Source: Actinomycetota bacterium
Lineage (GTDB): Bacteria > Actinomycetota > Acidimicrobiia > Acidimicrobiales > Ilumatobacteraceae
NCBI GenBank assembly: GCA_016213665.1
Contig: JACQZX010000035.1
Location: 1,037-65,036, forward strand
Reading direction: 5' to 3'
DNA: 64,000 bases
Numbering within the stretch: position 1 is the stretch's first letter; every line of letters begins with the position of its first letter. The notes under the pieces were generated by a model. That model was not told where the DNA came from. It ran no database searches and worked only from the letters and a program-made list of their open reading frames with translations. Made by a program: the position numbers and the translations under genes. Positions 171 to 42,119 of this stretch are shown here, piece by piece.

Positions 171-776
171 GACCGCCGGGCGTTGCTCCGCGCCGGCGTA
201 GGGCTGGGTGTCAGTGGTGCCGCGGTCTCGCTGCTGCCGCTGCCTATCGGCAGCGCGGTCGCATCATCGGGCACCGACGGAACCACGACCACCGCGCCGC
301 CTCGCCGCCCGACCGACGACGATGTCGCGCTGCTCGCCGCCGCGCAGCAGATCGAACTCACCGCTCGCGAGTTGTACGACGTGGCACTGGCCGCGGGCGG
401 TTGGTCCGAAGTCGAGACGACGGTGATCACCACCATTCGCGAGGCGCACGAGGCGGTGGCACAGGCACTTGCCGGCATGCTCGGTGGTGATGCCCCCGGC
501 GAGATCTCACAACCGCTGTTCGAGTCGCTGAGTGGCGGCTTCGAAGGTTCCCTCGGCGATCGACTCGCCGCCGCCTACTCTTTGGAGTCCGCAATCGTGG
601 CGACACACGGCGCCGCCCTCGCGGCACTTACCGGCATCGACGGTGCGACTCTTGTCGCCGCCGCCCAGTCGGCCGAAGCCCGACACGGAACCGTGCTCGC
701 CGATCTCGCCGGTGACACCGACCTGGCAACGCTTCTCGTGTGGAACGAGCAAGCCGAATTGGAAGTGTCGGCATGA
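150..776 (+). CDS. Ferritin-like domain protein with twin-arginine signal
   Basis: Tat-like SDRRALLRAGVGLGVSG is followed by helical ferritin-like repeats (LLAAAQQIELTARELY, AYSLESAIVATHGAALA, SAEARHGTVLA). The ORF opens at 120; GTG 150 is the in-frame start nearest the RR motif. The stop overlaps the next start as ATGA. Confidence 0.6.
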   Translation: MNSRSASDRRALLRAGVGLGVSGAAVSLLPLPIGSAVASSGTDGTTTTAPPRRPTDDDVALLAAAQQIELTARELYDVALAAGGWSEVETTVITTIREAHEAVAQALAGMLGGDAPGEISQPLFESLSGGFEGSLGDRLAAAYSLESAIVATHGAALAALTGIDGATLVAAAQSAEARHGTVLADLAGDTDLATLLVWNEQAELEVSA

Positions 777-1753
777 GTCCGAACAACGATCTCCATCCCG
801 TCACTGCCACACCGGTTGCTCGCCGACAACTGTTTCGTCTTGGTGGCGTAACGGTGGCATCCGCGGTAGCGCTCGCCGCCTGCGGCAAGAGCGAGGCAGG
901 GGCGCCCGGCCGTGTCGGTGTCGGCGAAGAAACCCCCAAGCTCGCCGACCCGGTGGTCAACAACGGCGTGCACATGCGCACGATGGCCGGGATCGAACAA
1001 TCGATCGCCGCGGCGTACACGCGCATGATCGACGAAGAGCTGCTGGCAGTGCCCAGTTCCACCTTTCCGAACGTCGGCGATCTCAGCGATGTCGTCACCG
1101 CCTTTCTCGAACACCACTCCGCCGCGGCCACCACCTTCAACGAGCTGGCCGTCGGTCAAAATGCCGAGCCGTGGGAGTGCGGTAACACCCGCCTCGATGA
1201 CGCTTTCATCAGCGTGGTCTTCGACCGGGTGGAGAACGGGGCGGAAGCCTCCGACGCGGCCGGCGCCATCGCCGCCAGTGACGACCCAACCCGCGACATG
1301 CTCAACCTCGTGCACACACTCGAGTCGTTGTCCGCGGCGTCGTGTCAAGGGCTCGCTTCCCAGGTCACCGAACCGGCTTTGCGCGCGGCGGCCGCAACCA
1401 TCGGCGTCGCCTCCGCTCGCCAGGCGGCACTGATCGCGTTGCGGCTCAACCCCGGCGGCTACGTCTCGGCGACCGATGCCGAGAGTGCGCAGCCAGCCGT
1501 TGTTGCCACCACGGCCGCGCCGACCACGACTCAGAACATCGCCGCCCCGGCCGACGACAGCAACGCTGACGCAACGGCGACGCCGCCGCTCACCGAGGTC
1601 CCGCTGCCGGTGGCCATTCCCGCTCAGTTCGGCTCGCTTGCCCCGATCGGCTACGTGGGTGGTGCCGGCGACGAGAACGGGGTGCGGCTGAAGCTGAACT
1701 TCGAAACGCCGAGCCTCAACTCGTTCGCATACCCATTCGACGTGTGCTCATAG
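773..1753 (+). CDS. Ferritin-like domain lipoprotein (Tat signal plus lipobox)
   Basis: ARRQLFRLGGVTVASAVALAACG gives an RR motif and a lipobox. The body is ferritin-like helical with an Ala/Thr-rich linker. It is translationally coupled (ATGA) to the upstream paralogue. Confidence 0.6.
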   Translation: MSPNNDLHPVTATPVARRQLFRLGGVTVASAVALAACGKSEAGAPGRVGVGEETPKLADPVVNNGVHMRTMAGIEQSIAAAYTRMIDEELLAVPSSTFPNVGDLSDVVTAFLEHHSAAATTFNELAVGQNAEPWECGNTRLDDAFISVVFDRVENGAEASDAAGAIAASDDPTRDMLNLVHTLESLSAASCQGLASQVTEPALRAAAATIGVASARQAALIALRLNPGGYVSATDAESAQPAVVATTAAPTTTQNIAAPADDSNADATATPPLTEVPLPVAIPAQFGSLAPIGYVGGAGDENGVRLKLNFETPSLNSFAYPFDVCS

Positions 1754-1796
1754 CCCGCGCGTAGAGCACCGCACCCGTAGACTTCACGATGGTGGT

Positions 1797-2172
1797 GAGT
1801 CGGCCGGGTGGCCGCGGTACGGCTTGACCGTATCGAGGAAAGTCGGGACTCCACAGAGCAGAGTGCTGGCGTGAGCCAGGTCGGGGCGACCTGACGGAAG
1901 TGCAACAGAGAGAGACCGCCGATGGGCTGTTGGTCCTTGGACCGACAGCCACAGGTAAGGGTGCAACGGTGCGGTAAGAGCGCACCAGCGTGCGAGGCGA
2001 CTCGCACGGCTCGGTAAACCCCACTCGGAGCAAGGCCAAGCAGAGAGAACGGACTGCTCGTTCGCCGGCCCCGGTCGGCAACTCTCGGGTAGGCCGCATA
2101 GAGGGATGGTCACCGTCGACTCGCTTCGGCGATGGCGACACAGAATCCCGCTTACAGGCCGACTCACTACCG
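1797..2172 (+). ncRNA. rnpB: RNase P RNA, bacterial type A
   Basis: Universal motifs are present: GAGGAAAGTCGGGACTCCACAGAGCA, GTGCAACAGAGAG, GGTAAGGGTGCAACGGTGCGGTAAGAGCGCACCAG, GGTAAACCCCACTCGGAGCAAGGCCAAG and ACAGAATCCCGCTTA. P1 pairs 5' GAGTCGGCC (1797-) with 3' GGCCGACTC (2157-2165). The ends are good to a few nt. Confidence 0.9.
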
Positions 2173-2176
2173 CTAC
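2146..2176. repeat. attL: 31-bp direct repeat overlapping the 3' end of rnpB
   Basis: tcccgcttacaggccgactcactaccgctac is identical to 9786-9816. Confidence 0.85.
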
Positions 2177-2251
2177 CCCGCTGACCAGGGGAAACGCGGC
2201 CCGCCGGTCGGGTCGTGGACACATTCACGACACACGGCGTCACCAGCGTGC

Positions 2252-3406
2252 CTACAACGCCGCCTCCGAGCGCGGTAGCCACGACGCCGACGCCGCCTCA
2301 ATCGCGTCGCGCGTCCGCTCCTCGTCGGTCGGCCAAAGGTGCGTGTAGACGTCCAGGGTTTCGGCTGGCGAGGCATGACCCAGCACCGCTTGCACGGCGG
2401 CCACCGACAGCCCGGCGGCGATGAGCGACGATGCCGCAACGTGTCGCAGGTCGTGTGTTCGGGTGCGGTCGAGCCCCGCGGTCGCGCACGCCTGCCGGTA
2501 GTGATCCGACCAGTTCGACCGCGGCACCGGCCCGCCGCGCGTCGTCGTGAAGATCAACCCCTGGTCGCCAGCGGGGAACTCGGCCAAGTGCGCGGCGAGT
2601 AGCTCGACGACGCGCACCGGCACCGGGATGGTGCGTATGCCCGCTTTCGTCTTGGGCGATGCGAACCCGGTTTGGCCCGCGACGTTCGCGAGCTGGCGAT
2701 CGACGCGGATCGACCGTCGCAGGAAGTCGACACGATCGACGGTCAGCCCGAGGCACTCCCCCAGCCTGAGCCCCACCGTCGCCATGAGTAGGACACCGGC
2801 GCTCCATCGCGGCGGCATTCCCTCTGCCAGCTCGGGCACCTTGCCCGCCACCTGCGCGATGTGTCGTGGGTCGACTCGTCGCTCGGTCTTCGCGCCGACC
2901 TTGACGCGCTCCGCGGGATTCTTCACGATGCGCCCATCGTCGACCGCTTCACGCAGCACGGCGGCGAGCGTGAACACGACGGCGCGCGCGGTCGTCGACG
3001 CGACCGCCTTGCTTCCCGCGCCCGAGGCTGTGGTCGTGTCGCGCTGCAACGATCCAGCGAACTGCTTGACTGCCTCGCGGTCGATCGTGGAGAGTTGGCG
3101 TCGACCGAACGCGGGCACTAGGTGCTTCCTAATGTGCGCAGCAAAAGTCTCGGCCGTCGTTGGCTTCACGGTCTGGCGCTTCCGATCTAGCCATCGCTCG
3201 GCGTACTCAGCAAACGTCATCTTGCCCGCGGACGGGTCGACATACTCGCCGCTGTTCTTGCGATGTTCGATCGATGTGAGGAAGGCGTCAGCCTCCTCCT
3301 TCTTCTTGAACGTCTTGGAGCGTTGCGCGCCATCCGGCGTCCGGTATCGCACGCGATGCTGAACCGCCCGGCCGTTCTTGTCCCTGGTCGTGTCGATGCT
3401 TGCCAC
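2252..3406 (-). CDS. Tyrosine recombinase / phage-type integrase
   Basis: The C-terminal catalytic signature is present: THDLRHVAASSLIAAG ... LGHASPAETLDVYTHLW. An N-terminal SAM-like core-binding region is also present. Start set to GTG 3406, preceded by AAGGAGG with a 7-nt spacer (the ORF opens at 3454). Confidence 0.9.
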   Translation of the reverse strand: MASIDTTRDKNGRAVQHRVRYRTPDGAQRSKTFKKKEEADAFLTSIEHRKNSGEYVDPSAGKMTFAEYAERWLDRKRQTVKPTTAETFAAHIRKHLVPAFGRRQLSTIDREAVKQFAGSLQRDTTTASGAGSKAVASTTARAVVFTLAAVLREAVDDGRIVKNPAERVKVGAKTERRVDPRHIAQVAGKVPELAEGMPPRWSAGVLLMATVGLRLGECLGLTVDRVDFLRRSIRVDRQLANVAGQTGFASPKTKAGIRTIPVPVRVVELLAAHLAEFPAGDQGLIFTTTRGGPVPRSNWSDHYRQACATAGLDRTRTHDLRHVAASSLIAAGLSVAAVQAVLGHASPAETLDVYTHLWPTDEERTRDAIEAASASWLPRSEAAL

Positions 3407-3408
3407 TG

Positions 3409-3984
3409 TCAGCCCTCCTTGTTGTCGAGACTGCCGGCGAGAAGTCGCCGACACTTTGCAGTCATGCGGCCGCCGGTTCGGCCCTCACTCTGATCCGGTC
3501 GGTCGGTTATCAGGCCGCGGCGTTCCGCCTCAGCGAGCCACGTTCGCCATGTCTTTTCCGACGGCCGCGAATTCGTCGGCGACTCACCCTCCTCGACGAG
3601 CCAGCGAATCGGTGTGCGCGGTTCGTGCTTCATCGCCGCCACGAACTCGGCTACCCGCTCCGCGTAAAACTCATCGCCCCGACCCCGTCGACCCGGCCGC
3701 GACCGCACGACCTCGCGGCGAAGCGACGGCGGCAACAGGAACCGCAACGGCGACGTCGTGAGCAGCTCCTCAATCCGGTCGTTGAGCTCGCCCATATTCA
3801 ACGTGCGGAGCACCGTCGCGGGCAGCGGTCGCGGCAGACCGTCCGACGACTCGACGGCCACGCGCCGCAGCCCCGCGCGTGCACCGTCGGAAACGACCTC
3901 AACGCGCAGATCCCAGCCCGGCAAGTACTCGCGTTGCACGCCCTCAATGCCGACTACTGGCCGACCGATGTGTCGCCACTCCAT
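3409..3984 (-). CDS. Hypothetical protein upstream of the integrase (possible element regulator)
   Basis: ATG 3984 is preceded by GGAGGGTAGGAAA. The stop lies 2 nt before the integrase start. No domain recognised. Confidence 0.5.
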   Translation of the reverse strand: MEWRHIGRPVVGIEGVQREYLPGWDLRVEVVSDGARAGLRRVAVESSDGLPRPLPATVLRTLNMGELNDRIEELLTTSPLRFLLPPSLRREVVRSRPGRRGRGDEFYAERVAEFVAAMKHEPRTPIRWLVEEGESPTNSRPSEKTWRTWLAEAERRGLITDRPDQSEGRTGGRMTAKCRRLLAGSLDNKEG

Positions 3985-3988
3985 TTTC

Positions 3989-4034
3989 CTACCCTCCGAA
4001 CAATGCAGACATCGTTGACAAGACGGGAGGGTAG
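3989..4034. promoter_or_regulatory. Divergent control region: 9-bp inverted repeat with an embedded TTGACA
   Basis: ctaccctcc (3989-3997) and ggagggtag (4026-4034) flank a consensus -35 hexamer TTGACA (4015-4020). The site lies between the leftward regulator/int genes and the rightward xis-rep operon. Confidence 0.4.
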
Positions 4035-4086
4035 CAGAGTACAACGGGAACTATCCACGTTTCAGACGATCATGGAGGAACAAGAG

Positions 4087-4278
4087 ATGGTTGAGAACCT
4101 CCTCACCTGCACCGAAACCGCCGAGCATCTCGGCGTCCCAGAAAAGACACTCGCCCAGTGGCGCTATCACGGCAAGGGTCCGGCCTACGTGAAGATCGGC
4201 AAATACGTGCGCTACCGCCCCGGCGACGTCGCGGCGTACCTCGCCGAAAACACCGTGCAACCGCGACCCGCGGCGTGA
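4087..4278 (+). CDS. Excisionase-like (MerR/Xis-type) helix-turn-helix protein
   Basis: LTCTETAEHLGVPEKTLAQWRYHGKGPAYVKIGKYVRYRPGDVAAYL is the classic excisionase-family HTH. ATG 4087 is preceded by GGAGGA; an alternative ATG lies at 4072. Confidence 0.8.
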   Translation: MVENLLTCTETAEHLGVPEKTLAQWRYHGKGPAYVKIGKYVRYRPGDVAAYLAENTVQPRPAA

Positions 4279-4411
4279 CCCGCTCGCGAACGAGGCCAGC
4301 CGAAGGGCTGGCCCCGCTGGTCGAATCGCCGCCACAGCGCACCGACAGCTGGCACGTTACCGCGGCAGCTGCGAGCTGGCGCGCCATCGACGCACTCGAC
4401 GCGGGGCGCTG

Positions 4412-5824
4412 ATGGCCGCGCAGCGCACAAAACCTGCGGTCGCGCAGCGGCCGATTCCGCACAACCTCCCAGCGGAAGAAAGCACACTCGGCACGATGCT
4501 CCTGTCGCTGGACGCAGCCCGCGCCGTCGTCGAGCTGGTGACCGCCGCCGACTTTTTCAAGCCCGCCCACGGTCACATTTTCCACGCGATCACGCAGCTC
4601 CTCGCCAAGCCTGACCCGCGCGTCGACGTCGTGCTGGTCGACGAACAGCTGCGCCAGAACGGGCTACATGATGAGGCTGGCGGATCGCAGTTCCTCATGG
4701 AGCTAACGACCGCGACCACGTCGATCGGAAGCGCGGCGAAGTACGCGGCCATCGTTAGGAACACCGCGGTCCAGCGCCGGATGATCGCGACCGCTGCGCA
4801 GATCACCGACCTCGGCTACATGACCGACGACCCGACGACGGCGATCACGCGTGCGCGCCAGCTCGTCGCCGACCTCGACGCGACACGGATGATCCACGCC
4901 GACGAGCCGATCGAACTGATCGACTGGTCAACGCTTCACGACCGCGGTGACGAGTACATCGACGGCGTGCTCATGCCCGCCCGCTGGTCCGCGTGGTGTG
5001 CCAGCGCGAAAGTGGGCAAGAGCACCCTCGCGGTGTGCCTGACGACTTCCGTCTCGAAAGGGATCAGCCCGCTCGACGGCACTCGCCGCGACCCGCTGAC
5101 CGTGCTGTACATCGACGCCGAGATGGGCCGACACGACCTGCACGAACGACTTGTCGACCTCGGCCACGACCCGGCGAAGCTCACCCGCTGGCACGCCAGT
5201 GACCTCCCCCCGAAGCTCGACACAGCCGAGGGTGGAAACGCGATCGTCGCCGCCACGCGTCAGCTCAGTGCCGCCATCGTCGTCATCGACGGCATCAACG
5301 GCGTCGTCTCGGGTGCCGAGAAGGACGACACCACCTGGCGCGCGTTCTACGACTGCACGGTCCGACCGCTGAAGCGCGACGGCGTCGCAGTGCTGACGCT
5401 CGACAACCTCGGCAAAGACCACACGCTCGGCCCACGCGGCTCGTCCGTCAAACTCGACAAGGCCGACGCCATCGTCCGACTCACCCGCACCGACAACGGC
5501 ATCCGACTGCAAGCAACCCACCGCCGATCCACCGCGTTCGACGCCGAACTCACCCTCACCGCGTACGGACTCGACGGCACCGAGGCGGTCGCGTTCCGCA
5601 GGACGTCATCGGCATGGCCCGACGGAACCAGCGACGCCGTCGCACTCCTCGACCAGCTCGGCCTACCCGCTGACGCCGGCCGCAACCGCGCCCGGCAGAT
5701 CCTCAAGGACGCCGGTCGACCGATGAGCGACAACCTGCTCAAAGCCGCGCTGCGCTACCGCAAATCCCACGTCGAAACCATCCCGCTGCCGCTGGAAGAA
5801 GGCCCACAAGATGAGACGTTCTGA
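4412..5824 (+). CDS. Replication protein: DnaB-N-terminal-like domain fused to a RecA-fold (RepA/AAA_25-like) ATPase
   Basis: The N-terminus PHNLPAEESTLGTMLLSLDAARAVVELVTAADFFKPAHGHIF resembles the DnaB N-domain. A Walker A motif is present (SAKVGKSTLAV), and VIDGING resembles Walker B. Confidence 0.7.
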   Translation: MAAQRTKPAVAQRPIPHNLPAEESTLGTMLLSLDAARAVVELVTAADFFKPAHGHIFHAITQLLAKPDPRVDVVLVDEQLRQNGLHDEAGGSQFLMELTTATTSIGSAAKYAAIVRNTAVQRRMIATAAQITDLGYMTDDPTTAITRARQLVADLDATRMIHADEPIELIDWSTLHDRGDEYIDGVLMPARWSAWCASAKVGKSTLAVCLTTSVSKGISPLDGTRRDPLTVLYIDAEMGRHDLHERLVDLGHDPAKLTRWHASDLPPKLDTAEGGNAIVAATRQLSAAIVVIDGINGVVSGAEKDDTTWRAFYDCTVRPLKRDGVAVLTLDNLGKDHTLGPRGSSVKLDKADAIVRLTRTDNGIRLQATHRRSTAFDAELTLTAYGLDGTEAVAFRRTSSAWPDGTSDAVALLDQLGLPADAGRNRARQILKDAGRPMSDNLLKAALRYRKSHVETIPLPLEEGPQDETF

Positions 5825-5852
5825 CGACCCAAAACCTGGGCGAGCTTTCCCC

Positions 5853-5951
5853 CGCCCAGCTTGTCCGACCATTTCGCCCAGGCCCGACGCCCAGCCCGAC
5901 GAAACCCACACGACCAACGGCTCGCCCAGCCCTGCGCCCAGGTTCGCCCAG
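5853..5951. repeat. Iteron-like array: six copies of CGCCCAG
   Basis: CGCCCAG starts at 5853, 5875, 5888, 5923, 5935 and 5945. Longer forms are tTCGCCCAGG at 5874 and 5944, and cTCGCCCAGc at 5922. The array lies immediately downstream of the replication gene. Confidence 0.6.
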
Positions 5952-5981
5952 GTACCCGCGGCTGAAGGGGGTGGCGGGGGT

Positions 5982-6146
5982 GTGGTGCGTAGCCCACCCC
6001 CGCAACCCAGCCCAGAGCCCGGCGGCTGCGACCACTGCAACGCGTACCAAACCGTCACCGCCGACCCTCAACTGCCGGGCCTATGGCACAACCGCATCCA
6101 CCACGACGACTGGTGCCCGTGGCTCGCGAGCAAGGAGCACCGATGA
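5982..6146 (+). CDS. Small Cys/His-containing hypothetical protein
   Basis: GGCDHCNAYQ...WHNRIHHDDWCPW. GTG 5982/5985 follows a G-rich SD-like stretch. The Pro-rich N-terminal part of the longer ORF (from 5811) coincides with the iteron DNA and is probably non-coding. Confidence 0.35.
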   Translation: MVRSPPPQPSPEPGGCDHCNAYQTVTADPQLPGLWHNRIHHDDWCPWLASKEHR

Positions 6147-6173
6147 CAACCCACCACGCGAGGAACCCCCACC

Positions 6174-6422
6174 GTGATCGACACCTACCGGCCCCAGTGG
6201 CACCGAAACGCCGCATGCCACGGCCAAACGTCGAGCTTCTTCCCGAAGCGCGGCCAGCCCATCGACGACGCCCGCGCCATCTGCGCAGCTTGCCCAGTAC
6301 TCGACCAATGCCGCGAGTACGTCACCCGCGTCGCCGCGCCCGAGATGTACGGCGTGTGGGCAGGACTCAGCGAACGACAACGACGACAGCTGCGCCGCGC
6401 TCGACGCGCCAGCTCGACGTGA
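6174..6422 (+). CDS. WhiB-family transcription factor (Fe-S, Wbl)
   Basis: Four Cys are present (AACHG ... ICAACPVLDQC). The GVWAG turn and an Arg-rich C-terminal tail (SERQRRQLRRARR) follow. Confidence 0.85.
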   Translation: MIDTYRPQWHRNAACHGQTSSFFPKRGQPIDDARAICAACPVLDQCREYVTRVAAPEMYGVWAGLSERQRRQLRRARRASST

Positions 6423-6587
6423 CGCCCACCCCCCCAGGGGTACCAACGCGGGCGGTCGGGCGGTCAGGGTCAAAGGGGGCTGCGCGGTGACGTGAGGATG
6501 AATTGCGCGCTCGTTTTTAGCGCTCCCCGAGTGCAACCAATCGACCCGCCCCCCAAGGGCAAAACCAGAGCAGAAGGAGACCAACGA

Positions 6588-6857
6588 ATGAGCAACGACG
6601 ACGACACGACTGAGGGTTTCGACGGCGAGCATCGCTTCGAGCTGAACGGTGACGAGCTGACCACGTCGGCACCGGCGGTGCTGGTGGTGCTGGATGAGGA
6701 CTGGTGGCGCAAGCTGGTCGCGCAGCTCGACGATGTCGGCATCGACAAGCTGCTGGCTGGTGAGCTGCGGTACACCGCGTTCGCTGACGACGGGGTGGCA
6801 TCGTTGCCGCTGGTCCCGCCGCAATGGCTCCGCGATGAAATCGAGTCGGAGTTGTAG
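6588..6857 (+). CDS. Acidic hypothetical protein upstream of the capsid gene
   Basis: ATG 6588 is preceded by GAAGGAGA. The product is 89 aa and acidic, with no domain recognised. Confidence 0.5.
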   Translation: MSNDDDTTEGFDGEHRFELNGDELTTSAPAVLVVLDEDWWRKLVAQLDDVGIDKLLAGELRYTAFADDGVASLPLVPPQWLRDEIESEL

Positions 6858-6995
6858 AGTGCCCCTGTTCGGTCGAGCGATTCGATCGGGCGGAACTCCA
6901 GGGCGCGATGCCCACCCGTCCAGAGGTGCAGGCGCGAGGCCGCACGACTTGCCGGTGACTTCCCCGCATCGACTAGCCCAGGAGGCTTCACGCAC

Positions 6996-7811
6996 ATGCC
7001 CGTAACCACTGAAAGTTTCGACGGCTTCACTTGCCGCGATGACCTTGCGACGTTCGTCGCCAACGCGGCGGTAGGTGGCGCGCCGTTCGCGCGTTCACTC
7101 ACGCCGCTGCCAACTGAACGCGGTGGTGTCGCGTTCCCGACCGTCGCGCCCGACGGATTCGATTGGGTGAGCGAAGGCGCGCCGATTCCCGAGGTCGATC
7201 TGCACGACGACGCGAATGTTGTCGCCGTCGCCAAGCTCGCCGGCCTCGTGAAGATGAGCAACGAGTTCGTTGGCGACAACGAGCTGCCGATCTCGAACCT
7301 GCTGCGCGACGCCGTAGCGGACTCGATGGGTCCAAAGCTCGACGTCGGTCTGCTGTTCGGCGGCGGAGCACCCGAGCCGAACGGGATCCTCGCGCTCGCC
7401 GCCGAGTCAGTGATCGGCCCCGACTTTCGTTCGTCGATCATCGGCGCGTGGGGTGAGCTCGTCGATGCAGGCGCGAACCCGGAGAGCATCGTCGCGTTCG
7501 CGAGCGCGGGCGTCGTCGCATGGGAACTCGGCCGCACGAACGACCAGGGCACACCGGTGCACGCCGACGGCGCGGCCGCGATGGTCGGGCCGGGCATCAA
7601 GCTGGTAGCTGTTCCGTCGTTGTCGGCCGGTGCAACGCTGGTCGCTGACGTGTCGCGGTTGTTCCTCGTCTTGCGCGACGACTTCGAGGCGAAGTTCAGC
7701 GAGCACGCTGCGTTCGCCAACGACCAGACGGTCATGCGCGTGAAGGGTCGATTCGCGATCGCGTGCCCGACACCGGGCAAGGCGTTGCGCGTCATTCCGA
7801 ACGCGTCCTAA
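6996..7811 (+). CDS. HK97-type phage major capsid protein, short form (271 aa, no N-terminal delta/scaffold domain)
   Basis: The Phage_capsid-like pattern is VAVAKLAGLVKMSNEFVGDN...LLRDAVADSMGPKLDVGLLFGGGAPEPNGIL ... KLVAVPSL...LVADVSRLFLVLRDD...DQTVMRVKGRFA. The ATG is preceded by AGGAGG. Confidence 0.75.
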   Translation: MPVTTESFDGFTCRDDLATFVANAAVGGAPFARSLTPLPTERGGVAFPTVAPDGFDWVSEGAPIPEVDLHDDANVVAVAKLAGLVKMSNEFVGDNELPISNLLRDAVADSMGPKLDVGLLFGGGAPEPNGILALAAESVIGPDFRSSIIGAWGELVDAGANPESIVAFASAGVVAWELGRTNDQGTPVHADGAAAMVGPGIKLVAVPSLSAGATLVADVSRLFLVLRDDFEAKFSEHAAFANDQTVMRVKGRFAIACPTPGKALRVIPNAS

Positions 7812-8023
7812 GCGTTCCTTGATCGTCTCTTCAAGCCCGGCGATCGAGGGGCGACGGTCGCGCTGCTCGATCTTTCGGGCGAGCTGCGCGACTACCCCCG
7901 GTGCGTTCCCCATCCGCGTTTTTCTTCGTCGTTGAGCGCGGACGGGGGGCGGCCACCGTCACCAAAATGAGAACGGGACCGACCCGGCAAAGTCGGCCCC
8001 GATCCACACAACGAAGGAGCGTC

Positions 8024-8188
8024 ATGGTCTCCAGCGCAGAAGGCCCGCACGGTAGCGCGTGCGAAGTGATCGAGAAGCGGTCGTCGTTCGAGACTGCCGA
8101 CATCGGCGAAGTGCTCAACGAACTGACAGCGATGACCGCGGCCGAACGTCGCCAGCTCGCATGGTCGCGGTTCGATCGCGTCCCCTGA
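8024..8188 (+). CDS. Small hypothetical protein (54 aa)
   Basis: A strong SD (GAAGGAG) lies 5 nt upstream of ATG 8024. No domain recognised. Confidence 0.45.
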   Translation: MVSSAEGPHGSACEVIEKRSSFETADIGEVLNELTAMTAAERRQLAWSRFDRVP

Positions 8189-8290: not shown

Positions 8291-8515
8291 GTGTCCCTGT
8301 TGATTGAACCGCGGCCGTCGCGTCGAGCTGGTGCCAGCCGCGACCTGCTCGACGAGTGGGAAGCCAACGCGTACGCGGTGCGCCGCCACCACCTCGCAAC
8401 CGCGGCGAACACTCGTTTCGACGACGACCTTCCCCAGCAACCGTGGCGACACATAGCCGAAACTCGCGCAGCGCTCCACGCCCTCTCGTCTGGCACAGTT
8501 TGGGCCACAATATGA
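8291..8515 (+). CDS. Hypothetical protein (74 aa)
   Basis: GTG start. The stop overlaps the next ATG as ATGA (8512-8515). No domain recognised. Confidence 0.3.
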   Translation: MSLLIEPRPSRRAGASRDLLDEWEANAYAVRRHHLATAANTRFDDDLPQQPWRHIAETRAALHALSSGTVWATI

Positions 8516-9117
8516 ACGGCGCTCTGCTTGTGGCGTCGATCGCGACCGCCCTGTTCACGGCAGTACTCGCGTGGGTGACTTGGCAGCTTGTCAAATCCAC
8601 GAAGGAGATGGCCGACGCATCGAAGCTGATGGTGCGCGTCACGCAGGACGCCGCACCTCGGCCCGCCCTCGTTCCGTACCTGTTCATCTACGCCGACAAC
8701 GTCTTCCTCGATCTGCTCAACGCCGGCGACGGCGCAGCGATCGATGTCGACATCAAGATCACGTGGAACCGTCGGGACGACGCCGTGACGGTACTCCGGT
8801 CGAGCGAGACCCGCTGGCGTGCGTCCGTCCTTCCCGCCGGGAAGCGCGTGCGATTCAACCCCAAGGTGGGCGGCGAGGGTTGGCTTACCGTCAAAGCACT
8901 CGGTGTCCTAGAAAGCGTGACCGTCGTCGGCACGATGAAGGATGCGCGTGGGGACGGGCTCACGGTCAACGCGTCGATCGACGAGCCGGGCAAGCTGCAC
9001 GACTTCGAGGTCGAAGCACAACGCCAATACCCGTCGAACTACGAACCCGACGAAATCGTCGCGGCGTCACTCCAGAAGATCGCCAACGTCATCGAGAAGC
9101 GACTCCCTCAGAGCTGA
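8512..9117 (+). CDS. N-terminally membrane-anchored hypothetical protein (201 aa)
   Basis: One N-terminal TM helix (LLVASIATALFTAVLAWVTWQLV) is followed by a beta-rich soluble domain (LLNAGDGAAIDVDIKITW...). No family recognised. Confidence 0.5.
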   Translation: MNGALLVASIATALFTAVLAWVTWQLVKSTKEMADASKLMVRVTQDAAPRPALVPYLFIYADNVFLDLLNAGDGAAIDVDIKITWNRRDDAVTVLRSSETRWRASVLPAGKRVRFNPKVGGEGWLTVKALGVLESVTVVGTMKDARGDGLTVNASIDEPGKLHDFEVEAQRQYPSNYEPDEIVAASLQKIANVIEKRLPQS

Positions 9118-9123
9118 CGGTTG

Positions 9124-9627
9124 CTACGGAAGCTTGTCGGGGCAGAAGGTCGACAGCGCTAATTCCTGGAAGCTGCCCGCAAAGTCGTCGCCGAGCGTCG
9201 CGATCATGTCCGTCACGTCGCCCGCGCACAACGTCCGGGCGAAAGCCACAGCGTCGATCGCCGAGCCGTCCGACTCGGGCACGCCGATCTGGAAGCGTTC
9301 TATCGCCTCGGCGCGGAACGCGTCTTCGTCGATGCCGTCACCGACGGGCGGCAGCGTTGTCACTCCGAGCTCGATCGCCAGGTCGGTCGTGCAGTAACTC
9401 GCTACGACCCTGTCGATCTCATCGGGCGTCGCCGGCGTTCCCACGGCCAACGACTGGCAGTAGTTCTTGAGATAGCCGAGCGCGGCGTCGTCATTGACGA
9501 ACGCATCAGCGTCAACCGCTCGCCAGTCCTTAAGGAACCGTTCCCGAGTCGATGGCTCGTCTGAAGTGCTGGAGCAACCCGCGAGCGCGGTCAGCGCCAC
9601 GCCGATGAGTACGAAGGTCTTGGTCAT
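9124..9627 (-). CDS. Putative secreted lipoprotein
   Basis: MTKTFVLIGVALTALAGCSS gives a signal peptide plus lipobox. The mature domain contains 4 Cys. It lies inside the element, next to attR. Confidence 0.6.
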   Translation of the reverse strand: MTKTFVLIGVALTALAGCSSTSDEPSTRERFLKDWRAVDADAFVNDDAALGYLKNYCQSLAVGTPATPDEIDRVVASYCTTDLAIELGVTTLPPVGDGIDEDAFRAEAIERFQIGVPESDGSAIDAVAFARTLCAGDVTDMIATLGDDFAGSFQELALSTFCPDKLP

Positions 9628-9785
9628 CGCCAGGACGCTACATGTCGTGGTCGCGACCGTGACACAAGAAAGACACAGCGTGTCGGGAAGTGGCAGGAAA
9701 TAACGGGAACCACGAGGATGCATCGCCGCAGGTAGTCGGCCCTTTCGATGAATCACCGCAGGTCGTCGATGGTGCCTCAATCGTT

Positions 9786-9816
9786 TCCCGCTTACAGGCC
9801 GACTCACTACCGCTAC
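9786..9816. repeat. attR: displaced copy of the rnpB 3' end
   Basis: 31/31 identity with 2146-2176. No rnpB body lies upstream of it. Confidence 0.85.
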
Positions 9817-9930
9817 ATACCCTGGCCTGACCTCCAAGGACGTCGCCGGTCGGTATGTCCGAGGGGGAAGTCGAAACGTTGTACGTTTTGTTTCAGCAGG
9901 TAACCGGCCTGCGAGAGCAGAGGGGAAAGC

Positions 9931-10239
9931 ATGTACACACTTGGGGCAATCTTGTTGTTGGCAGTCTTGTTGGGGGCCGTGGTCGCAGTAATCGACTCGG
10001 TGCTTGACGTTGCCAAGCTCAAGGACGTTGTCGCGAAAATACCAGTGATCGGGGCTCATTGGGGTCTCGGCATCAGCATCCTCATGATCTGGCTTCTCGA
10101 TCTGGCGCCAGCCGCCGGATGGGGAGTCTGGATGAAGGACGACTGGATGAACATTGTGGCCAATGGCGCCATCGTCTACGGGGCTATCCCGTTGAAGGAT
10201 GCCGTCGTGTCAATGGTCAATAAGGGCCTTCGCGCCTAA
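9931..10239 (+). CDS. Small multi-pass membrane protein (102 aa)
   Basis: Three hydrophobic segments are present. An SD-like GAGAGGGGAAAG precedes the ATG. Codon usage is more A/T-rich than in neighbouring genes, and a strong terminator follows. Confidence 0.6.
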   Translation: MYTLGAILLLAVLLGAVVAVIDSVLDVAKLKDVVAKIPVIGAHWGLGISILMIWLLDLAPAAGWGVWMKDDWMNIVANGAIVYGAIPLKDAVVSMVNKGLRA

Positions 10240-10272
10240 CCCAACGACGGCCGCAAACGGCCGGACCGTATT

Positions 10273-41738: not shown

Positions 41739-41875
41739 GGAGGACACGACGACGAGCGGAGCATCGAGGAAGGGGAATCGGCTACCACCGATGAGCAGGC
41801 CGCTCATGCGTGCCTTCCAGGAGGCCCTCCTCCTCCCCTCCCTGGGTGCTCCGCCCGCTCGTCACAACGATTCGG

Positions 41876-41948
<73 letters not shown>

Positions 41949-42043
41949 GAAAATCGGGAAGTCGCCACCGCTTCCCGGCTCTGTGTCAGCTCACAGACGT
42001 TGTGTCGCTCTGTGCGCTGACACAGAGATCGAACGGCCGCGCT

Positions 42044-42119
42044 TGGCTCCGAGAGCAGGGCTCGAACCTGCGACCCGCTGATTAACAGTCAGCTGCTCTG
42101 CCAACTGAGCTATCTCGGA
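42044..42119 (-). tRNA. tRNA-Asn (anticodon GTT), CCA encoded
   Basis: Acceptor stem TCCGAGA/TCTCGGA, anticodon loop CTGTTAA, T-arm GCAGGTTCGAGCCCTGC, 3' GCCA. Confidence 0.9.

What the first reader, a model, noticed from the sequence alone, without database searches (positions are those of the whole stretch)
4087..7811. A lone, short HK97-type capsid gene in a 7.6-kb element with its own replication module: phage-satellite-like architecture in an actinobacterium
The rightward operon encodes Xis, a DnaB-N/RecA-fold replication protein, WhiB, an acidic 89-aa protein and a 271-aa HK97-type major capsid protein. That capsid protein has no N-terminal delta/scaffold domain. I recognise no terminase, portal, prohead protease, head-tail, tail or lysis gene. 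At 7.6 kb the element is far too small for an autonomous tailed phage. The combination of integration, own replication, own capsid subunit and nothing else resembles capsid-encoding phage satellites. It also resembles the ~10-kb phiRv1/phiRv2-type mini-prophage-like elements of Mycobacterium. Integrated, capsid-encoding satellites are poorly described in Actinomycetota. The acidic protein just upstream of the capsid gene could be an external scaffold or size-determination factor; this is inference only.
Basis: partly seen in the sequence, partly recalled or inferred. Interest (0 to 1): 0.75.

Follow-up and report, generated by a model that had tools for sequence, protein, structure and literature searches.

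The report
Lone-capsid mini phage satellite at rnpB
A 7.6-kb mobile element inserted in the RNase P RNA gene of an uncultured actinobacterium carries its own integration and replication genes plus one phage capsid gene, and belongs to a previously undescribed family of uniformly small, probably phage-parasitising elements that also carry anti-phage defence genes.

Summary
A perfect 31-nt direct repeat (2146-2176 / 9786-9816) bounds a 7,640-bp element in the 3' end of rnpB. It encodes a tyrosine integrase, a divergent putative regulator, Xis, a DnaB_N/AAA_25 Rep followed by seven iterons, WhiB, an acidic 89-aa protein and a 271-aa HK97-fold capsid protein with no delta domain. Two conserved small ORFs and two cargo genes follow. 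I found no terminase, portal, protease, tail or lysis gene.

About 20 related loci, mostly Acidimicrobiia MAGs or unbinned contigs, share this plan. They differ in recombinase (Tyr or Ser), att site (rnpB, tRNAs) and cargo, which is often a defence gene. Seven of the eight measured unit sizes are 7.64-8.08 kb. One relative is a circular 7.9-kb contig and another is circularly permuted. Two lineages add a small terminase, and two have an HNH nuclease. The capsid gene is the best-conserved gene and is under strong purifying selection.

Best reading: a PICI-like, helper-dependent phage satellite whose single capsid homologue builds or redirects small capsids, as Ccm does in SaPIbov5. No helper was found, and packaging is inferred. 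The scaffold role proposed for the acidic protein is unsupported. Verdict: new variant of a known kind, interest about 0.6.

The parts
1796..2170 (+). rnpB (RNase P RNA, class A), the host target gene; its 3' end contains the attachment core
   Evidence: Rfam RF00010, 218.8 bits. The same site is occupied by a related element in L014, where rnpB lies at 1-352 and the att repeat starts at 328.
2146..2176 (.). attL core, the left copy of a perfect 31-nt direct repeat
   Evidence: family D5
2252..3454 (-). Tyrosine integrase
   Evidence: PF00589 E=7e-23 and phrog_1 E=1e-67. It is 77% identical to the integrase of the syntenic L014 element.
3409..4044 (-). 211-aa putative regulator (candidate master repressor), next to int and divergent from the xis operon
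   Evidence: Only a weak match to HTH phrog_11473, E=1.7e-4. It is 71% identical to the ORF at the same position in L014. In the L071/L072 relatives this position holds a cI-like HTH_31 repressor. The repressor role is inferred from position.
3989..4034 (.). Operator-like inverted repeat CTACCCTCC / GGAGGGTAG. It brackets a TTGACA hexamer in the divergent promoter region.
   Evidence: sequence read. Function inferred.
4087..4278 (+). Xis / AlpA-like HTH_17 DNA-binding protein
   Evidence: PF12728 E=8e-11; phrog_66 excisionase E=1e-10
4412..5824 (+). Replication initiator/helicase: DnaB N-terminal domain plus an AAA_25 RecA-fold ATPase
   Evidence: PF00772 E=1e-21 and PF13481 E=2e-16; NCBIfam DnaB models match the N-terminal part only
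5836..5951 (.). Iteron cluster, the putative origin of replication: seven copies of CGCCCAG (one inverted) directly after the rep stop codon
   Evidence: Seven of the 21 copies in the whole 64-kb window fall within 116 nt. Every relative examined has its own, different repeated motif at the same place (3-18 copies, clearest in L007, L002, L067 and L001). This makes the N-terminal part of ORF 5811-6146 doubtful as a gene.
6174..6422 (+). WhiB-family transcription factor
   Evidence: PF02467 E=9e-18. Present in most relatives, but replaced by HNH plus small terminase in L007.
6588..6857 (+). Acidic 89-aa protein: a disordered acidic N-terminus followed by a small helix-helix-strand-strand-helix domain. 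Function unknown.
   Evidence: Homologues lie directly upstream of the capsid gene in most relatives. The family has 26 short proteins and no Pfam domain. The AF2 single-sequence model has pLDDT 70, and Foldseek found no match.
6996..7811 (+). HK97-fold major capsid protein homologue, 271 aa, with no delta domain
   Evidence: Family and fold. Selection: dN/dS 0.15-0.40 against relatives. In L067 versus L068, all 24 differences are synonymous.
7908..7947 (+). Conserved stem-loop about 100 nt after the capsid stop codon. The stem shows compensatory changes relative to L007, and the 18-nt loop is conserved.
   Evidence: -30.2 kcal/mol, z -4.5 in the window; -28.6 kcal/mol, z -4.8 in L007. Function unknown; it could be a terminator, an RNA stabiliser or a packaging signal.
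7974..8001 (-). 12-bp hairpin followed by a T-run, terminator-like on the minus strand. The same motif with its flanks occurs in a phage contig (L015/L016).
   Evidence: -24.1 kcal/mol on the minus strand against -16.6 on the plus strand
8024..8188 (+). Conserved 54-aa ORF (orf54), function unknown
   Evidence: The motif LDV.AALAALDELTPEQ-like is present downstream of the capsid gene in L001, L002, L005, L006, L007, L012, L014 and L061. A short ORF (56-62 aa) was called at the same position in L067-L072, but I did not compare its sequence.
8291..8515 (+). Conserved 74-aa ORF (orf74), function unknown. In relatives it lies next to the att or recombinase end.
   Evidence: tblastn hits in L007 (66% identity), L014, L012, L068, L005, L006 and L063. 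DNA similarity to L007 runs through it.
8509..9117 (+). Cargo: 202-aa protein with an N-terminal transmembrane segment, no family match
   Evidence: Coding-type GC3; no Pfam, PHROG, PADLOC or NCBIfam hit
9124..9627 (-). Cargo: 167-aa predicted lipoprotein (signal peptide plus Cys). Candidate superinfection-exclusion factor; this role is inferred.
   Evidence: The N-terminus reads MTKTFVLIGVALTALAGCSS. It is 68% identical to a gene in the cargo slot of relative L002. No family hit.
9786..9816 (.). attR core, the right copy of the 31-nt direct repeat

Best explanation
The element is an integrated, self-replicating phage satellite of the PICI type. It belongs to a previously undescribed family of mostly 7.6-8.1 kb elements found mainly in Acidimicrobiia.

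Proposed cycle, with each step marked shown or inferred:
1. It sits in rnpB under a repressor encoded next to int (inferred).
2. On infection or induction of a helper phage it is derepressed (inferred).
3. Xis and Int excise it. The att repeats are shown here, and circular or permuted copies are shown in relatives.
4. Rep fires the adjacent iteron origin. The rep-iteron module is shown; its activity is inferred.
5. Its single HK97-fold capsid protein either co-assembles with or replaces the helper's capsid protein on the helper's portal. This would give small heads sized for about 7.7 kb, a T=3-like capacity by volume scaling (inferred).
6. These heads are filled by the helper's terminase and receive the helper's tails (inferred).
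7. Some relatives add their own small terminase, with or without an HNH nuclease, to redirect packaging (the genes are shown).
8. The att-proximal slot carries host-benefiting cargo. In relatives this is anti-phage defence genes. Here it is a membrane protein and a lipoprotein.
For: 1. Precise mobile element: a 31-nt perfect att repeat in rnpB.

2. SaPI-like layout: int and a regulator on one strand; xis, rep, ori, a morphogenesis module and accessory genes on the other.

3. About 20 related loci share the core but have no large terminase, portal, protease or tail genes.

4. Modules are exchanged between members.
- Recombinases are Tyr or Ser.
- Att sites are rnpB, tRNA-Gly, tRNA-Met and others.
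- An identical capsid protein sits with a Tyr integrase in L067 and with a Ser recombinase in L068.

5. Unit sizes are 7640, 7690, 7729, 7733, 7908, 7933 and 8078 bp despite different cargo. The only outlier is 6577 bp, in a copy with a degraded rep gene.

6. Free or tandem forms exist. IMG/VR contig L005 is circular, with a 123-nt overlap and an ORF spanning the junction. L068 is circularly permuted across attP.

7. Packaging genes occur in relatives.
- HNH plus a Terminase_4 small terminase in L007 (phrog_83, E=3e-25).
- A small-terminase-like ORF in L071-L079 (phrog_1496 and phrog_83, E about 3e-7; called in L072-L079).
- HNH in L011.

8. The capsid is the most conserved gene: 68-79% amino-acid identity, against 31-35% for Rep. 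Its dN/dS is 0.15-0.40. One pair shows 24 of 24 differences synonymous.

9. The cargo slot in relatives holds PADLOC defence genes: a TIR protein, PD-Lambda-2, PD-T7-4/DUF4145 and Mrr. This matches P4-like and PICI satellites.

10. There is precedent for a satellite that uses a single capsid homologue. SaPIbov5 Ccm forms the pentamers of small T=4 heads (PMC8569155).
Against: - No helper phage was identified. The capsid and the whole element have no match in 50,697 phage records. Only one IMG/VR contig, itself an element copy, carries a related capsid.
- No particle-derived DNA was examined, so packaging is not shown.
- This particular element has no small terminase, and no cos or pac site has been demonstrated.
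- A delta-less capsid normally needs a separate scaffold. The only candidate, the acidic protein, is short, has no structural match and is deleted in L067.
- The repressor assignment rests on a weak HTH hit.
- 7.6 kb is smaller than classical PICIs.
Confidence: 0.6

Rival explanations
1. The element is an integrative, self-replicating element that is not packaged. Its capsid homologue works as an anti-phage weapon: a dominant-negative or decoy subunit that poisons capsid assembly of infecting phages. The element spreads by other means or mainly vertically.
For: - Relatives carry defence cargo.
- The capsid is under purifying selection, as any functional protein would be.
- No helper was found, and this copy has no packaging gene.
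- Ccm-type capsid homologues do interfere strongly with helpers (PMC8569155).
Against: - It does not explain the narrow 7.6-8.1 kb size class across different cargo and recombinases.
- It does not explain the small-terminase and HNH genes in relatives.
- No PADLOC model matches the core genes.
- Interference and satellite transfer are not mutually exclusive.
Confidence: 0.15
2. The element is a self-sufficient minimal capsid-forming element. The capsid protein assembles a small shell on its own, and element-encoded functions (Rep ATPase, small ORFs) load the 7.7-kb DNA or a protein cargo. This would be a tail-less virus-like or encapsulin-like particle that needs no helper.
For: - The protein has the size of a mature HK97 subunit and of encapsulins, and encapsulin shells appear among the Foldseek hits.
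- Unit size is uniform.
- Three conserved small proteins of unknown function flank the capsid gene.
Against: - The best fold and profile matches are phage and GTA capsids, not encapsulins, and there is no Linocin_M18 hit.
- No portal or packaging ATPase of any known type is present.
- Small-terminase and HNH genes in relatives imply use of a phage large terminase that the elements lack.
- No known dsDNA packaging works without a portal and terminase.
Confidence: 0.07
3. The element is a decaying remnant of a normal temperate phage that has lost its other structural genes.
For: - Integrase, Xis, WhiB and capsid genes are all common in actinobacterial prophages (PMC10023795).
- Some relatives are visibly degraded. 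L014 has a split rep gene, and L012 has a fragmented integrase and a fused capsid.
Against: - The same minimal gene set recurs in about 20 loci whose capsids are 36-79% identical, and most have intact ORFs.
- The att repeats are perfect.
- Each Rep has a matching iteron set.
- Circular copies exist.
- The capsid is under purifying selection.
- No frameshifted terminase or portal remnants were found, and there is no DNA similarity to phages.
Confidence: 0.03

Closest known systems
cos-type SaPIs, prototype SaPIbov5 with Ccm (PICI family)
   Same: - Integrated island with int and a regulator divergent from an xis-rep-ori operon.
- No own terminase, portal or tail.
- Its only HK97-fold capsid-protein gene is a single homologue, used to make small capsids and interfere with the helper (PMC8569155, PMC5052747).
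- Accessory genes at the end of the element.
   Different: - No sequence relationship.
- Host is an actinobacterium of class Acidimicrobiia rather than a Firmicute.
- About 7.7 kb rather than about 14 kb.
- The capsid homologue has no delta domain, whereas Ccm has one that is cleaved.
- Here the capsid is the most conserved gene of the family.
- Helper, cos site and induction are unknown.
Candidate Mycobacterium PICIs, including phiRv1/phiRv2 (PMC10654092; filed as PICI by SatelliteFinder, PMC10085698)
   Same: - Actinomycetota.
- Small integrated elements defined by an integrase plus a major capsid protein.
- Tyr or Ser integrases at tRNA or other sites.
- Some carry helicase or replication genes.
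- Some carry host-benefit cargo.
   Different: - From my own knowledge, not tested here: phiRv1/2 are about 10 kb and also encode a prohead protease and a terminase.
- The paper says some Mycobacterium candidates have terminase and scaffold genes.
- The present family has the capsid as its only head gene, with a small terminase in two lineages and an HNH nuclease in two.
- I could not fetch those sequences, so capsid homology between the two groups was not tested.
Capsid-forming satellites: cfPICI, and Streptomyces MulchRoom, MiniFlayer and Ando (PMC10085698, PMC10690885, PMC13587820)
   Same: - Satellites that encode their own HK97-type capsid protein and depend on a helper for tails.
- Ando and MulchRoom are integrase-bearing satellites of Actinomycetota that make small (47 nm) heads.
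   Different: - Those encode a full head and packaging set: portal, scaffold or protease, adaptor, small terminase and in some cases large terminase. They are 13-17 kb, and Ando has no replication genes.
- The present element has none of these head and packaging genes, but does have its own replicon.
P4-like satellites and PLE (external scaffolds Sid, TcaP)
   Same: - Integrated or episomal satellites with their own replication.
- Helper capsid size reduction.
- Defence-gene hotspots.
   Different: - Size reduction there uses non-capsid external scaffolds.
- No homologous core genes (psu, delta, sid, eps) are present here.
Encapsulins (HK97-fold nanocompartments)
   Same: About 270-aa HK97-fold protein without a delta domain; structural hits to encapsulin shells.
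   Different: - Pfam places the protein in Phage_capsid, not Linocin_M18.
- It is embedded in a mobile int/xis/rep element, and relatives carry terminase-related genes.
- No cargo enzyme is encoded alongside it.

Membership tests
PICI (phage-inducible chromosomal island) | Site-specific integration with an integrase at one end and short att direct repeats | tested here: met
   31-nt perfect repeat in rnpB; tyrosine integrase at 2252-3454
PICI (phage-inducible chromosomal island) | Divergent regulatory module: a master repressor next to int, facing the xis/rep operon | tested here: inconclusive
   The ORF at 3409-4044 is in the right place and orientation but gives only a weak HTH hit. There is an operator-like inverted repeat. 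Relatives L071/L072 have a clear cI-like HTH_31 repressor at this position.
PICI (phage-inducible chromosomal island) | Own replication module: an initiator/helicase with an adjacent iteron origin | tested here: met
   DnaB_N+AAA_25 Rep. Seven CGCCCAG iterons lie directly after it, and element-specific iterons are found in the relatives examined.
PICI (phage-inducible chromosomal island) | Packaging or capsid-interference module (small terminase, cpm/ppi or a capsid homologue) without other phage structural or lysis genes | tested here: met
   A capsid homologue only in this element. Small terminase and HNH genes occur in some relatives. No other structural genes were found in about 20 loci.
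PICI (phage-inducible chromosomal island) | Induction by, and high-frequency packaging and transfer by, a specific helper phage | not testable with these tools
   No helper was identified. Only indirect signs exist: a circular copy (L005), a permuted copy (L068) and the narrow size class.
PICI (phage-inducible chromosomal island) | Typical size of about 10-15 kb | tested here: not met
   7.64 kb here, and 7.6-8.1 kb across the family
cfPICI (capsid-forming PICI) | Encodes a full head set: capsid, portal, protease, head-tail adaptor and connector, small terminase (plus large terminase and HNH) | tested here: not met
   Only the capsid is present. No portal, protease or connector was found in any Pfam or PHROG search.
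P4-like satellite | Core genes psu, delta, sid, epsilon and an alpha primase | tested here: not met
   No such hits in Pfam or PHROG. A P4 cII-like cargo gene occurs only in relative L003.
phiRv1/phiRv2-type elements | Capsid plus prohead protease plus terminase plus primase plus serine integrase, about 10 kb (feature list recalled from my own knowledge) | tested here: not met
   No protease or terminase; a tyrosine integrase; 7.6 kb. Direct sequence comparison with phiRv1/2 was not possible.
HK97-fold major capsid protein (Pfam PF05065 / TIGR01554) | Profile match above the curated cut-off, and an HK97 fold with N-arm, E-loop, P-domain spine helix and A-domain | tested here: met
   PF05065 scored 56.3 bits against a cut-off of 24.2. 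TIGR01554 scored 45.1 bits against 27.5. The AF2 model with Foldseek gave probability 1.0 to HK97 gp5.
Encapsulin (family 1) | Linocin_M18 (PF04454) shell protein next to a cargo protein that carries a targeting peptide | tested here: not met
   Pfam hit to Phage_capsid only; the neighbours are mobile-element genes

The most novel reading that the evidence does not exclude
These mostly 7.6-8.1 kb elements might not be satellites at all. They could be the smallest self-sufficient HK97-capsid mobile elements. In that reading the lone delta-less capsid protein forms a T=3-size shell. The element's own Rep-type ATPase and the three conserved small proteins (acidic, orf54, orf74) load the genome without a portal-terminase machine. 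The result would be a tail-less, virus-like transfer particle of a kind not known among dsDNA elements.
Probability: 0.05. Interest if true: 0.9.

Novelty: new variant of a known kind. Interest (0 to 1): 0.6.

Why it matters
If these elements are satellites, three things follow.

First, satellite biology would extend to Acidimicrobiia, an abundant and mostly uncultured group of freshwater, marine and soil actinobacteria. The searches I ran found no paper describing satellites integrated in Acidimicrobiia genomes.

Second, the family would be a minimal design: an integration module, a replicon, one capsid gene and a defence slot in 7.6-8.1 kb. The tight size class, together with a delta-less capsid as the best-conserved gene, gives a testable prediction. 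The elements should be packaged in very small heads (T=3-like), or as fixed multiples in helper-sized heads. That would be among the smallest DNA-filled HK97-type capsids.

Third, the cargo slot is a practical place to look for new defence genes. The two uncharacterised cargo genes in this window are candidates.

The gene-order signature (recombinase, HTH_17, Rep with iterons, short Phage_capsid protein) could also be added to satellite finders, which probably do not detect these elements at present (I could not run one).

Tried and rejected
- **Helper search by capsid.** tblastn of the capsid against 50,697 phage records gave no match. blastn of the whole element gave no match. The IMG/VR scan returned only another element copy, L005.
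- **Genome and metagenome scans with the capsid alignment.** These gave one locus and six short loci, because the back-translated patterns were too narrow. They were of little use for a census.
- **Helper search by DNA motif.**
  - The 17-mer from the loop of hairpin 1 gave 44 IMG/VR hits, which I estimate (own calculation) is about what chance would give. None of these contigs encodes a relative of the capsid or other core proteins, bar one weak integrase match.
  - The hairpin 2 motif hit one phage type (L015/L016), about 1.4 kb upstream of its large terminase. That phage has 58% GC and an unrelated capsid, so it remains only a lead.
- **Acidic protein.**
  - A single-sequence homologue search returned only the query itself.
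  - A profile search found only short proteins from the same elements.
  - The single-sequence model had no Foldseek match at E<1.
  - The scaffold idea is therefore neither confirmed nor excluded.
- **Contig lengths of 7.6-8.0 kb as evidence of free circles.** I rejected this for L001, L002, L003 and L072, which are host-flanked or are unitigs ending in the att repeats. I accepted it only for L005 and, as a permuted copy, L068.
- **ORF 5811-6146.** I considered it as an HNH or zinc-finger gene. It has no family hit, and its 5' part is the iteron array.
- **Defence role for core genes.** There was no PADLOC hit apart from a weak mad1-like match of Xis.
- **Second copy or helper prophage in the window.** None was found by tblastn with the element's own proteins.

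Full report
**1. What is in the sequence**

The window carries a class-A RNase P RNA gene at 1796-2170. A perfect 31-nt direct repeat, TCCCGCTTACAGGCCGACTCACTACCGCTAC, lies at 2146-2176 and again at 9786-9816. The left copy overlaps the last 25 nt of rnpB. The spacing is 7,640 bp. This is the signature of a site-specific insertion that rebuilds the 3' end of its target.

The ORFs with coding-type third-position GC and family hits are listed below.

| Coordinates | Strand | Product | Key evidence |
|---|---|---|---|
| 2252-3454 | - | Tyrosine integrase | PF00589; phrog_1 E=1e-67 |
| 3409-4044 | - | 211-aa ORF | Weak HTH hit only |
| 4087-4278 | + | Xis-type protein | HTH_17 |
| 4412-5824 | + | 470-aa Rep | DnaB N-terminal domain plus AAA_25 ATPase |
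| 6174-6422 | + | WhiB | PF02467 |
| 6588-6857 | + | Acidic 89-aa ORF | No family hit |
| 6996-7811 | + | 271-aa capsid protein | PF05065 E=4e-15; TIGR01554 45 bits against a 27.5-bit cut-off |

**2. The capsid protein**

- An AlphaFold2 model built on 34 homologues has pLDDT 77 and pTM 0.76. It shows an N-arm helix, E-loop strands, a long spine helix and an A-domain.
- Foldseek places it with HK97 gp5, the Rhodobacter GTA capsid and actinophage capsids (Oxtober96, Adephagia, Bobi, Muddy, Bxb1) at probability 1.0. Encapsulin shells rank lower.
- A profile search of PDB sequences gives Mycobacterium phage Bobi as the best match, E=1e-8.
- There is no delta domain. TIGR01554 aligns only from profile position 113 of 385. 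HK97 gp5 residues 158-372 align to residues 53-259. The protein therefore corresponds to the mature, cleaved HK97 subunit.
- Many actinophage capsids of about 300 aa likewise lack a delta domain. From my own knowledge they use a separate scaffold, so this feature alone is not unusual.

**3. Nothing else structural**

No ORF of the element matches terminase, portal, protease, connector, tail or lysis families in Pfam or PHROGs. The element has no nucleotide similarity to 50,697 phage records, and the capsid has no tblastn match there.

The right-hand 2 kb holds:
- two conserved small ORFs, orf54 at 8024-8188 and orf74 at 8291-8515;
- a 202-aa membrane protein at 8509-9117;
- a 167-aa lipoprotein on the minus strand at 9124-9627.

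None of these has a family match.

**4. A replicon, not just a rep gene**

Directly after the rep stop codon, CGCCCAG occurs seven times within 116 nt (5836-5951, one copy inverted). The whole 64-kb window has only 21 copies on both strands.

Every relative I examined has a cluster of a different short repeat at the same position:
- GGGAACAGGT, 11 copies, in L007;
- CCACCGC, 10 copies, in L002;
- CCACCGCGG, 9 copies, in L067;
- CGTGGACAC, 8 copies, in L001.

L005, L068 and L072 also have such clusters, the last a weak one.

Element-specific iterons next to rep are the arrangement I recall for SaPI replication modules (own knowledge). They make the 5' part of ORF 5811-6146 unlikely to be a gene.

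Between the divergent 211-aa ORF and xis, a 9-bp inverted repeat (3989-3997 / 4026-4034) brackets a TTGACA hexamer. This is a plausible operator, but that is inference.

**5. The family**

The capsid has about 80 homologues in the 5.8-billion-protein collection. Nearly all are 268-290 aa, and all come from metagenomes or MAGs. Most named MAGs are Ilumatobacter, Ilumatobacteraceae, Acidimicrobiaceae or Acidimicrobiales. One member is labelled Dehalococcoidia, and most contigs are unbinned. A profile search of 1.84 billion representatives finds 99 clusters at E<=1e-30, and the full-length ones are again mostly 258-306 aa.

I looked at about 20 genomic contexts. Nearly all show the same order:
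1. a recombinase;
2. often a regulator;
3. an HTH_17, HTH_3 or HTH_31 protein;
4. a Rep;
5. one to three small ORFs, usually including WhiB;
6. usually the acidic ORF;
7. the capsid;
8. an orf54-like ORF;
9. variable cargo.

None has a large terminase, portal, protease or tail gene.

The modules are shuffled between members:
- Recombinases are tyrosine or serine type.
- Targets are rnpB (window and L014), tRNA-Gly (L007 and L067), tRNA-Met (L012), another tRNA 3' end (L003) and non-tRNA sites.
- L067 and L068 encode the same capsid protein. L067 has a tyrosine integrase, and L068 has a serine recombinase.

**6. Signs of a packaged life cycle**

(a) *Size.* Units defined by att repeats or by circular assembly measure 7640, 7690, 7729, 7733, 7908, 7933 and 8078 bp, despite different recombinases and cargo. 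The only outlier is L014 at 6577 bp, and its rep gene is broken.

(b) *Free or tandem forms.* IMG/VR contig L005 has a 123-nt terminal overlap, and an ORF runs across the junction. It is therefore a circular 7,908-bp assembly. L068 is circularly permuted, with cargo adjacent to the recombinase, so it spans attP.

(c) *Packaging genes in relatives.*
- L007, the closest relative (79% capsid identity), has an HNH nuclease and a Terminase_4 small terminase (phrog_83, E=3e-25) where the window has WhiB.
- The widespread L071-L079 lineage has a 101-aa small-terminase-like ORF, called in L072-L079 (phrog_1496 and phrog_83, E about 3e-7).
- L011 has an HNH nuclease after its capsid gene.
- A small terminase or HNH nuclease is useful only with a large terminase, which these elements lack. 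This points to a helper phage.

(d) *Selection.*
- The capsid is 68-79% identical between elements whose Rep proteins are 31-35% identical and whose WhiB proteins are 33-46% identical.
- Capsid dN/dS is 0.15-0.40.
- Between L067 and L068 all 24 nucleotide differences are third-position and synonymous.

(e) *Cargo.* The slot near att holds known defence genes in relatives: a TIR protein, PD-Lambda-2 with a P4 cII-like gene, and PD-T7-4/DUF4145, plus Mrr. The window's lipoprotein recurs at 68% identity in L002.

**7. Mechanism**

The layout is that of a SaPI or PICI. The nearest functional precedent is the cos-type SaPIbov5. Its only capsid-related gene, ccm, is a capsid homologue that occupies the pentamers and forces small T=4 heads (PMC8569155).

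I therefore propose helper-induced excision, rep-ori replication, and use of the lone capsid protein to make or redirect small heads on the helper's portal. The helper's terminase would fill them, assisted by an element-encoded small terminase in some lineages.

The following is my own calculation and is inference. Scaling head radius as the square root of T from HK97 (T=7, 39.7 kb), with packing densities of 0.37-0.45 bp per cubic nm, gives about 7.6-9.3 kb for a T=3 head and 14-17 kb for a T=4 head. The 7.6-8.1 kb class therefore fits a filled T=3-like head. Packaging of a fixed multiple in helper-sized heads would fit equally well.

**8. What is not supported**

- The acidic protein is conserved in position. 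However, it evolves fast, with dN/dS 0.6-0.8. It has a disordered N-terminus and a small domain with no structural match. It is mostly deleted in L067 although that capsid is intact. A scaffold or size-determining role is only a guess.
- No helper was found.
- Two conserved hairpins lie between the capsid gene and orf54. The stem at 7908-7947 has compensatory changes and a conserved loop. The stem at 7974-8001 is stronger on the minus strand. These may be terminators or a packaging signal.
- The second hairpin, with its flanks, recurs in a phage contig (L015/L016) about 1.4 kb upstream of that phage's large terminase. This is a lead and not evidence.

**9. Comparison and novelty**

Satellites that carry a capsid gene are already described in Actinomycetota:
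- candidate Mycobacterium PICIs, defined as integrase plus capsid and including phiRv1/2 (PMC10654092, PMC10085698);
- the isolated Streptomyces satellites MulchRoom, MiniFlayer and Ando, which encode portal, scaffold and terminase genes and are 13-17 kb (PMC10690885, PMC13587820).

The present family differs in four ways. Its hosts are mostly Acidimicrobiia. It is about half the size. It has its own replicon. It has a single structural gene. It meets most of the structural criteria for a PICI but not the usual size. It fails the cfPICI and P4-like criteria, and helper induction cannot be tested here.

Literature searches found no paper describing such elements in Acidimicrobiia genomes or at rnpB.

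I rate it a new variant of a known kind, with interest about 0.6.

Noticed in passing
window 7908-7947 and 7974-8001: Two conserved hairpins lie between the capsid gene and orf54. The first has compensatory stem changes relative to L007 and a conserved 18-nt loop. The second folds better on the minus strand, is followed there by a T-run, and has no obvious minus-strand gene to terminate. The second hairpin with its flanks also occurs in phage contigs L015 and L016, about 1.4 kb upstream of the large terminase gene.
   Followed up: partly
window 8291-8515: A 74-aa ORF (motif ASR..L.EWE..A...DD.LP) is conserved in at least seven relatives. It always lies near the att or recombinase end, but on either strand. 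It might be a directionality factor or a regulator. No family hit.
   Followed up: partly
window 5811-6146: This 111-aa ORF overlaps the iteron array in its proline-rich 5' half. Its 3' end encodes a Cys/His-rich stretch (CDHC...HNRIHHDDWC) with no family match. It is unclear whether any part is translated.
   Followed up: partly
window 9500-10250: GC content drops to 0.57-0.59, against about 0.65 elsewhere. The dip spans attR and continues outside the element, where a 102-aa hydrophobic ORF lies at 9931-10239. It may be the trace of an older insertion at the same site.
   Followed up: no
window 41874-42119: tRNA-Met and tRNA-Asn lie side by side, as they do in L012, where a family member is integrated in tRNA-Met. 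I found no second capsid or integrase copy in the window, so this potential site appears empty here.
   Followed up: partly
L067 5132-6004 versus L068 404-1276: The capsid proteins are identical although the genes differ at 24 synonymous sites. The two elements carry different recombinases (Tyr versus Ser). The acidic gene is deleted in L067. This indicates recent module exchange around a conserved capsid gene.
   Followed up: yes
L014 (Ilumatobacteraceae MAG GCA_039921745.1) 328-6934: A related element occupies the same rnpB site, next to the same host genes as in the window. Its integrase is 77% identical, but its capsid is only 52% identical, its rep gene is split and its orf54 lacks a start codon. 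It looks like a decaying or replaced copy.
   Followed up: partly
L008 8976-9779: In a distant family member, a 267-aa ORF sits just upstream of the capsid gene. It has no family hit but lies where a prohead protease or scaffold gene would be expected.
   Followed up: no
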